Source: Schmidtea polychroa
Lineage: Eukaryota
Length of the DNA stretch: 64,000 nucleotides
Assembly (NCBI GenBank): GCA_044892525.1
Contig: CM097885.1
Span: 22,818,001 to 22,882,000 of the forward strand
Direction of reading: 5' to 3'
The notes beneath the pieces were generated by a model. That model searched no databases, was not told where the DNA came from, and saw nothing but the letters and a program-made list of their open reading frames with translations. This document shows positions 40,708 through 63,883 of this stretch, in pieces; position 1 is the first letter of the stretch; the number at the start of each line of letters is the position of its first letter. A program made the translations under genes and the position numbers.

Positions 40708-41072
40708 TTACATTTGATACTTTTCAAAGCCTGACAATTTACATAAAAGTCGTTGCATCTCACGAGGCATTAAGGGAACATCATCAGCAAGTTTTAACAA
40801 CAATGGTTGAGCAAACAATAGCACTGACTGCAAACCATAATCCCCCTTTGACTCGAAACAATGGCACATTTTTAATAAATGCAATAAAATTTCAAATTTC
40901 ACAAAGATTTCAAATAGACTCTGCGATTCAGATAATTCTTTCGGGATGAACAGTGATAATGAGCTGACAATTAATTTGATCAGCTTAGAGAACCATATAT
41001 TATCGGTTAGTTGGGATCCGATATCCAACAGATTCCCAATTATAGAAAATAGTAATAAATTGCCAGAATACT
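40708..41072 (-). CDS. GEMIN4: GEMIN4-like terminal exon
   Basis: Acceptor (tta)n-ttag|AG completes a GAG codon; the exon ends [30 protein letters not shown]. Confidence 0.8.
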
Positions 41073-62000: not shown

Positions 62001-63883
62001 ATTTTTCTTTCATTTCTATTGCAAATTTCATTTTTATGTTTAAAATACACATTTCGTGTTTTCAGACTTTGTTGTTAACATTTTAATGATCCTTATGTGT
62101 AAAAATGGCGGAAAATAACCAAAGTGAAGAACAATGTGAATTGAAGACGAGTTGCTGCTAGAGAAAATGCGAGAAATCGTCGTGGAGCAAACAGTTCCAA
62201 AGGCTTGCTGCTGAAACAGGACTTCGTCAAATCGACGATCCTCAGAATGATCCTCACAAATGAGTGCAGATCGAATTCAAAGGGGTTCTCAATCTTCTAA
62301 AATGTGGAATTTGTTTTACCTCCGTGAATATTTCACGGGTAGAAAATAATGTGAAAGAAAATAACAAGCTGATAACTGAATATTTAAGATATTTTTTTGC
62401 TACTTTAATATGATTTTACATTGTTTTTGTGTAGTTATTATGGCCCAAGTGAAAATGTTTTAAATGTTGAACTATTGACATTCAGATAAATATTCTACTT
62501 AGATATTTTGTATGTTTTTTAATTTAATTATTTTTAATCCAATGAAAATGAAATTAATCGATAATCTTATGTGCAACCGATATATGTTATCGTGCAACTG
62601 CCCCCTTGCGATAACCGATAATGTTAATCAGTTTTTGGTAACTACGAAATTCTTTGGTTGGAAATTTTTTAATTGGTTAATTGAGTTTTAGCGAGATTTC
62701 AAAAAATATTTTATTATAACTAAGGAAACGAGCCAGATTTTACCTTAGTTACCAACAACAAATAGATGTTTCATCTTTTGTTCAACAAACACATACTATC
62801 AAAACCCAGAAAAAATGTTTTCGTTCTCTTTGAATCCAAGGAAAAACAAAATTAATCGATAATTTTCAAAATTAATTCTATGTCCAAATTTTAAAAAATA
62901 TAGATTTCTGATAATAATCGATAATCTACAAAAATAATGTTCCCAGTGTAATATAACATATAAATGGGAACTTTGAATTCAAAATTCCGCCAAAAATAGC
63001 TTTAATATATTTTCAATGGAATTGTTATTAATTTATTAAAATATATAAAAAAAACAAGTGGAAATTTCATTTATAAGCTTACTTCTCATTGCCAACATCA
63101 TTCAAAATGTTATTATTCGTGTCAAACTCCAGCAAGCTTATTGTTGTATAAATGAACTCGGTGCATAATTGAGAATCAAGACTTGTTATACACCTTTTGC
63201 AATGTTCATTTTCATTTTTAACTGAAATCCAATTCGTCAAATCTGGTATTGATTTGAGGAAAACATTTTTAAATAAATTATGATTAGATTCGTTTAAATT
63301 TTTTATTAATGGACAGAAAATCGAATGCTTCCCAGATTGTCTTGATAGTTTTACGAATTGCATAATTTGTACCATATATTTATCATGGTAATAGATTAAA
63401 AAATATTTTAAATAATGAGTTAAAAATAATTCAATTTCATTATAAAAAATGAAATTTCTTTTATCAGTCAATATTTTTACAAACTAAAAATTAGTCAACT
63501 TCTTAAAATCGTTAAACAATTTACCATTTCCAAATTGAAATTATTCATTGAGAAAAATTCCATAAATACACATTTTGAAATAATTAAATTATTCGATTTG
63601 TTAGACAGATTAATACTTTCAGTTTTTTTATATACAGATTTCGAATAAATTTGAAATAAAAAAACCATTAGATTCGACTTGATATCATTTGTTATATAAA
63701 TTTTAATAAGATTAGAAATTTCCAAACTAAATTTCGACGTCAAAGGTCCACTGCATTGAATATCAAATCCCTGAATTAAAATTAAAAATTATTTTGTCAA
63801 TGTAATTATTTTACATCAGCCTCTAGAGTATTAAAAACTAGCTGAATAATATCTATTTCAGATGTAAGACTTTCAGATAACAT
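40708..63883 (-). CDS. GEMIN4: 14-exon gene, 982 aa, probable GEMIN4 (SMN complex) ortholog
   Basis: Exons in transcript order: 63815-63883 (ATG), 63525-63770, 63083-63483, 61671-61850, 61314-61618, 58196-58250, 58026-58146, 57803-57970, 53651-53758, 53438-53602, 47016-47443, 46766-46973, 46578-46707, 40708-41072 (TAA). All junctions are GT-AG and phase-consistent, 2949 nt in total. The identity rests on colinear motif matches to human GEMIN4 recalled from memory; the gene structure is more certain than the name. Confidence 0.75.
41534..41723 (+). repeat. ~190 bp dispersed direct repeat (second copy 43848-44049)
   Basis: Both copies share ggtaatggaggtaattcc, agaggaaagcgtacgatata, ttttgagaacacg, ttggacaaaataaag and tttttgatgatcattt. 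Confidence 0.85.
42130..42510 (+). mobile_element. Penelope-like GIY-YIG endonuclease fragment
   Basis: [35 protein letters not shown]...[10 protein letters not shown]. Confidence 0.88.
44965..45362 (+). pseudogene. Actin pseudogene with multiple internal deletions
   Basis: [29 protein letters not shown] / [16 protein letters not shown] / SYVGD / [16 protein letters not shown] / [16 protein letters not shown] / SGRTT / LTDYLMRI, with frameshifts and stops. Confidence 0.92.
45500..46460. repeat. Degenerate AT-rich tandem duplication (~370-450 bp period)
   Basis: Recurring aaaataattttaactt...tcaacataacaaataaaa (~45645, ~46081) and gatagtattgaaataaaattgtcat (~45955, ~46323). Confidence 0.7.
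46578..47443 (-). CDS. GEMIN4: GEMIN4-like exons 11-13 (42 and 58 nt introns)
   Basis: [19 protein letters not shown]... / FFFKLAISS...STLTE / [13 protein letters not shown]...VPLSGNI; phases are consistent. Confidence 0.8.
50520..50830 (-). mobile_element. Tc1/mariner transposase relic
   Basis: [16 protein letters not shown] resembles the first catalytic IIFSDEAHFxL motif; heavily decayed. Confidence 0.5.
51895..53420. repeat. Complex (AAT)n/(AAAAT)n array with higher-order duplication
   Basis: Almost no C or G. Rare C-containing marks recur ~610-640 bp apart (aatactaat at ~52150 and ~52755; ataacaat at ~52215 and ~52850). Confidence 0.9.
53438..53758 (-). CDS. GEMIN4: GEMIN4-like exons 9-10 (48 nt intron 53603-53650)
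   Basis: [45 protein letters not shown]...ICQM. Confidence 0.78.
55262..55572 (+). pseudogene. Second, more decayed actin pseudogene
   Basis: [45 protein letters not shown] and SGSPMYP occur in actin order, with large deletions. Confidence 0.8.
55590..57440. repeat. Long imperfect inverted repeat centred ~56120 with tandem re-iterations of the right arm
   Basis: acaccaaa...taaattat..gcaac.aagacaaatatt...caaat.gtaagtt (~55658-55716) is the reverse complement of ~56535-56594; related units recur at ~56925 and ~57300. Confidence 0.75.
57803..58250 (-). CDS. GEMIN4: GEMIN4-like exons 6-8 (49 and 55 nt introns)
   Basis: [19 protein letters not shown] / [21 protein letters not shown]... / LLKLIILK...[22 protein letters not shown]. 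Confidence 0.72.
58361..59797. repeat. Tandem repeat, ~380-480 bp unit, 3+ copies, intronic
   Basis: tatgataaca...caaattttctg and aatcaccttgaaatta.aaagttgca recur in units starting at ~58361, ~58839, ~59299 and ~59682. Confidence 0.9.
59798..61298. repeat. Degenerate (TTA)n low-complexity array
   Basis: Nearly pure A/T, dominated by TTA units. Confidence 0.9.
61314..61850 (-). CDS. GEMIN4: GEMIN4-like exons 4-5 (52 nt intron 61619-61670)
   Basis: Open frames FKTTWNFPD...GKCL and [10 protein letters not shown]...KSKVCVK with matching phases. Confidence 0.75.
63083..63770 (-). CDS. GEMIN4: GEMIN4-like exons 2-3 (41 nt intron 63484-63524)
   Basis: Track ORFs 63495-63743 and 63079-63471 are joined by ATG|gtaaat...gactaatttttag|TTT. 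Confidence 0.75.
63815..63883 (-). CDS. GEMIN4: GEMIN4-like exon 1 (start codon)
   Basis: [23 protein letters not shown]|gtaaaa; in-frame TAA upstream of the ATG; followed by a 44 nt intron. Confidence 0.65.

What the first reader, a model, noticed from the sequence alone, without database searches (positions are those of the whole stretch)
40708..63883. Hidden 14-exon gene appears to be a highly diverged invertebrate GEMIN4
Seen: scattered short minus-strand ORFs join through GT-AG introns into one uninterrupted 982 aa frame from ATG to stop. Knowledge (human GEMIN4 recalled from memory): several colinear blocks match, e.g. [13 protein letters not shown] vs [47 protein letters not shown] vs [34 protein letters not shown] (ungapped); [36 protein letters not shown] vs [33 protein letters not shown]..VPL; and C-terminal [10 protein letters not shown] vs QTLLQKMSSF. 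Inference: this is an SMN-complex subunit long regarded as vertebrate-restricted and hard to detect in invertebrates. It is intron-rich here, whereas the human CDS lies almost entirely in one exon. It would probably be annotated as uncharacterised.
Basis: partly seen in the sequence, partly recalled or inferred. Interest (0 to 1): 0.75.

Follow-up and report, generated by a model that had tools for sequence, protein, structure and literature searches.

The report
Likely flatworm Gemin4 gene
A predicted 14-exon gene in a probable flatworm encodes a predicted 982-residue helical protein that is likely its Gemin4, a helper of spliceosome assembly already known from vertebrates and insects, so it would extend a known family rather than reveal a new one.

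Summary
The gene model holds up. Fourteen minus-strand exons join through 13 GT-AG introns into one 982-codon frame. Thirteen of 14 exons score as coding under a model trained on other genes of this genome, and exon 11 has a 42%-identical relative of the same extent in a public assembly. No RNA reads were examined, so the junctions are unconfirmed. The host is probably a flatworm (mitochondrial code). The GEMIN4 label is likely (about 0.75) but unproven: no search returned a named GEMIN4 or any other named family, and the sequence match rests on recalled human sequence. Consistent with it are the length, no Pfam domain, helical character, a single copy, and genes for Gemin2, 3, 5, 6, 7 and 8 in the same genome; SMN itself was not detected. 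The novelty premise is outdated: Gemin4 was shown in Drosophila and found in other insect orders (PMC6385987). The mammalian gene is indeed almost one exon (PMC5861365). Four literature searches found no flatworm Gemin4. Verdict: probably a new member of a known family; interest 0.3.

The parts
63815..63883 (-). Exon 1 (ATG; aa 1-23)
   Evidence: coding score +8.0 bits, top 0.2% of null; in-frame stop 5 codons upstream
63525..63770 (-). Exon 2 (aa 24-105)
   Evidence: +7.6 bits; flanking introns 44 and 41 nt
63083..63483 (-). Exon 3 (aa 106-239)
   Evidence: +10.4 bits
61671..61850 (-). Exon 4 (aa 239-299)
   Evidence: +3.7 bits
61314..61618 (-). Exon 5 (aa 299-401); donor has three frame-keeping options
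   Evidence: +12.0 bits
58196..58250 (-). Exon 6 (55 nt; aa 401-419), the least secure exon
   Evidence: +4.7 bits but +1 frame scores 6.2; GTAAGT donor and 49-nt intron follow
58026..58146 (-). Exon 7 (aa 419-459)
   Evidence: +5.9 bits
57803..57970 (-).
   Evidence: +12.4 bits; block match is recalled, not tested
53651..53758 (-).
   Evidence: +7.0 bits; block match is recalled
53438..53602 (-). Exon 10 (aa 552-606)
   Evidence: -1.8 bits in the coding model; kept because a 48-nt GT-AG intron links it in frame to exon 9 and it has the only frame-keeping join to exon 11
47016..47443 (-). Exon 11 (aa 607-749), longest exon; predicted helical; one basic cluster at aa 726-730
   Evidence: relative P0001 42% identical; single match in own genome; seven helices, mean pLDDT 57
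46766..46973 (-). Exon 12 (aa 749-818)
   Evidence: +6.4 bits
46578..46707 (-).
   Evidence: +6.4 bits
40708..41072 (-). Exon 14 (aa 862-982 and TAA stop); predicted helical
   Evidence: +10.2 bits; five helices, mean pLDDT 62
41074..41163 (.). (TAA)30 microsatellite that runs right up to the acceptor AG of exon 14
51887..53418 (.). 1.5-kb AAT-type microsatellite in intron 10
58413..61298 (.). Intron 5 repeats: 461-bp duplication (58413-59446) and 1.5-kb TTA array (59797-61298)

Best explanation
The minus strand carries a predicted 14-exon gene for a 982-residue, predicted helical scaffold protein that is likely the single Gemin4 of a probable flatworm, and that would bind the Gemin3 (DDX20) helicase and work with it in the SMN complex that loads Sm rings onto snRNAs. 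Shown here: the open spliced frame, its coding-like composition, one conserved exon in a relative, helical periodicity, and genes for Gemin2, 3, 5, 6, 7 and 8 in the same genome. Inferred from recalled sequence only: orthology to GEMIN4. Inferred from mammalian and fly work: Gemin4 binds Gemin3 directly and not SMN (PMC2174312), needs its C-terminal half for that (PMC5861365), helps Gemin3 open compact pre-snRNA around the Sm site (PMC10584915), and is essential in mouse and fly (PMC5861365, PMC6385987). It is hard to find because it evolves fast (42% identity to its nearest relative in the library) and is cut into exons of at most 142 codons, not because it is a new kind of protein.
For: Gene:. 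GEMIN4-like traits: 982 aa against 1,058 aa (PMC2174312); no Pfam family over its cut-off in 12 of 14 exons scanned, as GEMIN4 itself has no recognisable domain and is predicted elongated and all-helical (PMC8774908); models of exons 11 and 14 contain only helices (low confidence); the whole spliced protein has a raised helical hydrophobic moment, 0.793 against 0.680 +/- 0.034 in 100 shuffles (highest shuffle 0.774), with no rise at the strand angle; exon 11 matches once in the genome. Partners in the same genome: DDX20 (best PDB hit, 126 bits against 76 for the next helicase), Gemin2, Gemin5, Gemin6, Gemin7, Gemin8, the five Pfam matches all over cut-off.
Against: No call returned a GEMIN4. 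Word-index searches with exon 11, the exon 11 + P0001 alignment and exon 14 gave 0 of 548, 0 of 3,759 and 0 of 460 candidates at E <= 10. The 1.84-billion-protein search with exon 11 gave 4 hits: P0001 and three long proteins of 1,341-4,089 aa that look spurious, one named as a bacterial repeat protein. The ESM Atlas gave no usable hit twice. The supporting traits (length, helices, no domain) fit many scaffold proteins, and partner genes show only that a Gemin4 is expected. No classical basic NLS was found in the N-terminal half, where mouse NLS2 lies (aa 199-206). SMN was not detected. The N-terminal 490 aa have no resemblance that I could name.
Confidence: 0.75

Rival explanations
1. A real gene, but a very diverged member of another helical-scaffold family (for example an Integrator, Fanconi-anaemia or TTT-complex subunit); the GEMIN4 blocks are chance likeness between amphipathic helices.
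For: Helical, Leu/Ile-rich, about 1,000 aa; no direct GEMIN4 hit; Foldseek lists only generic helical-repeat folds.
Against: No PDB sequence hit better than E 0.18 for 8 of 14 exons searched and no Pfam hit over cut-off for 12 of 14, although such families are, by my recall, in both libraries; single exons are weak queries, so this only lowers the odds. The recalled blocks are many, ordered and end at both C-termini.
Confidence: 0.13
2. A flatworm-restricted orphan scaffold protein with no traceable relative outside the group.
For: The only credible relative found is one unnamed 139-aa protein; nothing in metagenome contigs (0 of 213 and 0 of 576 stretches).
Against: Gemin4 is known to need stepping-stone PSI-BLAST even within insects (PMC6385987); the genome has the other Gemins, so a Gemin4 is expected.
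Confidence: 0.07
3. The exons are real but the model is mis-joined: two neighbouring genes fused across a long intron, or a pseudogene.
For: Five introns are 1.2-6.0 kb and unconfirmed by reads; exons 6 and 10 score weakly; 9 of 13 junctions have alternatives.
Against: Every long intron has a frame-keeping GT-AG join right at the exon ends; there is no stop in 982 codons; the total length is near that of GEMIN4; exon 11 is conserved in a relative.
Confidence: 0.05

Closest known systems
Mammalian GEMIN4 (human and mouse, 1,058 aa)
   Same: Similar length, no recognisable domain, predicted all-helical (PMC8774908), no paralogue seen; colinear blocks in the C-terminal half (recalled, untested).
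   Different: 13 coding introns against one intron after codon 3 in mouse (PMC5861365); the model has no intron at that place (first intron after aa 23); about 76 aa shorter; no classical NLS found in the N-terminal half, one basic cluster at aa 726-730 instead. NLS2 is described for mammals and is not shown to be family-wide.
Drosophila Gemin4 (CG2941/Gaulos, CG32783, CG32786) and other insect Gemin4
   Same: Invertebrate, fast-evolving, missed by simple searches (PMC6385987).
   Different: Flies have three near-identical copies and lack Gemin6-7-8 (PMC6385987); here exon 11 matches once and Gemin6, 7 and 8 are present. No sequence comparison with the insect proteins was possible.
P0001 (unnamed protein from a Logan assembly)
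   Same: 42% identical over exon 11 with nearly the same start and end, probably the same exon in a related species.
   Different: Only 139 aa, no name, no organism, single-member cluster.

Membership tests
GEMIN4 | Significant full-length sequence or profile similarity to GEMIN4, best hit in both directions | not testable with these tools
   No GEMIN4 sequence or profile was returned by any search and the spliced protein was not searched whole; the match is recalled only.
GEMIN4 | Exon-level similarity to a named GEMIN4 | tested here: inconclusive
   None found; queries of 36-142 aa at an expected 20-25% identity are below the reach of these searches.
GEMIN4 | About 1,000 aa with no recognisable Pfam domain | tested here: met
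   982 aa; no family over cut-off in 12 of 14 exons; GEMIN4 described so in PMC2174312 and PMC8774908. Not specific.
GEMIN4 | All-helical scaffold fold | tested here: met
   Exon 11 and exon 14 models hold only helices at mean pLDDT 57 and 62; helical moment above all 100 shuffles. Weak and not specific; the full-length fold was not modelled.
GEMIN4 | Structural match to GEMIN4 | not testable with these tools
   No solved structure as of PMC8774908; no AlphaFold library on hand; Foldseek against PDB gave nothing at E <= 0.001.
GEMIN4 | Occurs with Gemin3/DDX20 and the other SMN-complex genes | tested here: met
   DDX20, Gemin2, 5, 6, 7, 8. SMN not detected by three Pfam models or a motif, which an intron-blind search cannot turn into absence.
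GEMIN4 | Direct binding to Gemin3 and co-purification with SMN | not testable with these tools
   Needs co-immunoprecipitation or pull-down, as in PMC2174312 and PMC6385987.
GEMIN4 | Essential for viability | not testable with these tools
   Shown in mouse and fly; needs RNAi here.
Other helical scaffolds (Integrator, FANC, TTT, HEAT/ARM/TPR families) | Match to the family's Pfam model or solved chains | tested here: inconclusive
   No hit over cut-off and none better than E 0.18 in PDB for 8 of 14 exons; single exons are weak queries.

The most novel reading that the evidence does not exclude
This is the first Gemin4 described from a flatworm, and its 13 introns keep the old build of the gene, so the almost single-exon vertebrate GEMIN4 arose by wholesale intron loss, probably through a retro-copy. 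The animal keeps the whole Gemin2-8 set that flies partly lost, which would make it an RNAi-tractable, regenerating model for what the Gemin3-Gemin4 module does in stem cells and neurons.
Probability: 0.45. Interest if true: 0.45.

Novelty: new member of a known kind. Interest (0 to 1): 0.3.

Why it matters
If the identity holds, it fills a gap in the range of an essential, disease-linked SMN-complex subunit whose function is still poorly defined, supplies a very distant sequence for finding the few residues that matter, and points to intron loss in the vertebrate gene. It does not overturn a current view: invertebrate Gemin4 has been in print since 2017-2018 (PMC6385987). The value is in annotation and in a possible new model organism.

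Tried and rejected
Searches that found no named relative: Pfam on 12 of 14 exons (exons 1 and 6 left out as very short) and on P0001; word-index protein searches (only the 'longer' length class was searched); ESM Atlas; PDB sequences; Foldseek against PDB; metagenome contigs. The wide structural search was not obtained. Hits P0002-P0004 were dropped as spurious (long, repetitive or without an aligned stretch; P0002 is a named bacterial repeat protein). Complex prediction of exons 11, 12 and 14 as separate chains with the last exon of this genome's DDX20: score 0.00 twice, verdict 'no answer'; no alignments were used and the job is unlike the calibration, so it counts neither way. SMN search: three Pfam models gave nothing and a recalled Tudor motif gave 7 matches against 5 for the reversed control, none SMN-like on reading. 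Other stop-free stretches inside the long introns (for example 50523-50732, 55256-55441, 51628-51789) were read and left out because the frame closes without them; the first looks like a Tc1/mariner scrap (recalled). A membrane protein was considered because of the high Leu/Ile/Phe content and rejected: only one 19-residue window exceeds a mean hydropathy of 2.0. The DNA beyond the window's end (L007) showed no clear further coding exon among frames of 45 codons or more. Papers PMC13529492 and PMC2287173 (passages) gave nothing on the range of Gemin4. Earlier scan notes by place and sequence were blank.

Full report
Observation. The window is about 25% GC with long AAT-type microsatellites. 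The finding listed no exons, so I read all three minus-strand frames around every candidate and built a model, knowing the target size. Fourteen exons (coordinates under parts) join into 2,949 nt: ATG at 63883, 982 codons, TAA ending at 40708, all 13 introns GT-AG. Eight introns are 41-58 nt and five are 1,232-5,994 nt.

Is it more than chance? In AT-rich DNA a long frame can be stitched together, so I tested it four ways. First, composition: CDS GC is 0.307 against 0.246 in 15.7 kb of non-repeat intron. Second, a 3-periodic model trained on 1,076 codons from DDX20, Gemin2, 6, 7, 8 and the homeobox gene of this genome scores 13 of 14 exons positive, +109.5 bits in all, while 1,515 stop-free stretches from 78.7 kb of intron and background average -0.056 bits per codon. 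Exon by exon the signal is modest: 4 of the 10 exons with a usable null pool are in the top 5%, exon 10 is slightly negative, and exon 6 scores better in another frame. Only 3 null stretches reach 101 codons, against four exons of 101-142. Third, intron size: the genome's DDX20 gene has short introns of 40-45 nt (6 of 7 junctions resolved, 5 short). Fourth, conservation: among 1.84 billion representatives exon 11 finds P0001 (139 aa, 42% identity, E 7.6e-23), an unnamed Logan protein on a 1,205-nt contig that covers almost exactly this exon. Its extent suggests the same exon in a related genome. The exact junctions are less sure: 9 of 13 have frame-keeping alternatives nearby, and no RNA reads were examined.

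Host. G000 is 781 Mb in 1,012 contigs. Its mitochondrial cox1 has 13 TGA in frame, uses AAG 15 times against AAA twice, and reads Ile at an ATA in a conserved motif where the bacterial CoxA in the same output also has Ile. That fits NCBI table 9 (flatworm and echinoderm). With the AT-rich genome and 40-60 nt introns I infer a flatworm, probably a triclad; the last step is from my own knowledge.

What the protein is. No search named it. Pfam gave nothing over cut-off for 12 of 14 exons. Word-index searches for longer relatives of exon 11, of the exon 11 + P0001 alignment and of exon 14 gave none. The ESM Atlas gave no usable hit. PDB sequences gave nothing better than E 0.18 for 8 exons. Metagenome contigs gave none. 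All these used single exons of 36-142 aa; the whole spliced protein was not searched or folded, so the decisive test is still open. Models of exon 11 (two-sequence alignment, pLDDT 57) and exon 14 (single sequence, pLDDT 62) hold only helices, and Foldseek returns generic helical repeats, none at E <= 0.001. Across the spliced protein the helical hydrophobic moment is 0.793 against 0.680 +/- 0.034 in 100 shuffles, with no excess at the strand angle. It looks like a soluble helical scaffold.

The GEMIN4 case. Scored by hand they give about 24, 45, 25 and 26 in BLOSUM62; none is significant alone. Their weight comes from order, near-constant spacing of the first two, and the last block sitting at both C-termini. 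My own recall of the human protein adds six more colinear stretches in exons 11, 12 and 14 (aa 613-628, 638-645, 709-720, 776-790, 888-900, 913-930), and those in exon 11 are among the best conserved against P0001. This is a strong lead, not a test. Tested traits agree with published descriptions of GEMIN4: 1,058 aa with no known motif (PMC2174312, 12 of 23 passages seen); no recognisable domain, no solved structure, predicted elongated and all-helical (PMC8774908, 10 passages); no paralogue (PMC5861365; exon 11 matches once here). One trait differs: mouse NLS2 (aa 199-206) has no counterpart by a simple basic-motif scan, which finds only aa 726-730.

Context. The genome holds a clear DDX20/Gemin3 (one match to a recalled motif, none for the control; best PDB hit DDX20 at 126 bits against 76) and Pfam matches over cut-off for Gemin2 (44.7 bits), Gemin5 (93.1), Gemin6 (31.9), Gemin7 (69) and Gemin8 (33.6). 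SMN was not detected, which an intron-blind search cannot turn into absence. A Gemin4 is therefore expected in this genome, though that does not show that this gene is it.

Mechanism. If it is Gemin4, it would bind Gemin3 directly and reach SMN only through it (PMC2174312); the C-terminal half is needed for that in mouse (PMC5861365, 12 of 16 passages seen), and this is the half where the recalled likeness lies. Gemin3 with Gemin4 is proposed to open compact pre-snRNA around the Sm site before ring loading (PMC10584915, 8 passages). Loss is lethal in mouse and fly. All of these steps are carried over from other animals; none is shown for this protein.

Comparison with what is known. PMC6385987 (abstract, 12 of 15 passages, section 19) shows by PSI-BLAST, co-purification and RNAi that Drosophila CG2941 is Gemin4, credits Lanfranco 2017 (seen only as cited), and reports it in four insect orders. 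Its Fig. S1 alignment could not be seen and may include other invertebrates. Searches for Gemin4 with planarian (0 papers), Schmidtea (0), Schistosoma (3 listings, none on this subject by title and abstract start) and Gemin + SMN + flatworm (2 listings, likewise) found no flatworm report; 'gem-associated protein 4' gave 17 listings, all on human or mammalian work by title. The library lacks most subscription journals, and database annotation of flatworm genes was not checked.

Verdict. A real, intron-rich gene; likely Gemin4 (0.75); a new member of a known family in a group where I found no report. The interesting remainder is the exon structure and the full Gemin set in an animal suited to RNAi. 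Interest 0.3.

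Noticed in passing
window 5624-9995 (-): Ty3/gypsy-type LTR retroelement with gag-like frames and a 1,061-aa pol frame (label from recalled motifs).
   Followed up: no
window 13572-13832 and 20215-20661 (+): Homeobox gene split by a long intron, NK1/Slouch-like by recalled sequence; used only as training sequence.
   Followed up: no
window 37615-38541 (+), 23700-24317 (+), 36538-36920: piggyBac-like transposase frame of 308 aa, a Penelope-like endonuclease end, and hAT-like scraps (labels recalled).
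   Followed up: no
window 41072-41163: The acceptor AG of exon 14 sits directly behind a perfect (TTA)30 run on the coding strand, so the microsatellite replaces the usual pyrimidine tract and branch region; repeat-length change could affect splicing.
   Followed up: no
L002 (G000:C433:38312-42454): Bacterial-type coxB-coxA gene pair read by the standard code, 38% GC: a symbiont or contaminant contig in the assembly, alphaproteobacterial by recalled likeness.
   Followed up: no
L003, L004 and 12 further contigs: Mitochondrial cox1 occurs with the same score on 14 contigs; on C339 a second copy lies about 35 kb away, which suggests a long mitochondrial genome; the open frame runs far upstream of the conserved start.
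   Followed up: partly
L013 (G000:C2:33257124-33260717): Gemin5 lies in one open frame of 1,194 codons, and its first 2 kb in the locus are 44-46% GC, falling to about 30% further on; that is well above the other coding DNA seen in this genome.
   Followed up: no
G000, whole genome: Gemin2, 3, 5, 6, 7 and 8 were found but SMN was not; most likely an intron-split or diverged SMN, worth an intron-aware search.
   Followed up: partly
L008 7175-10000 and L005 (-): DDX20/Gemin3 gene with eight exons and a C-terminal tail of only about 170 aa in one exon; shorter than the human tail by recall.
   Followed up: partly
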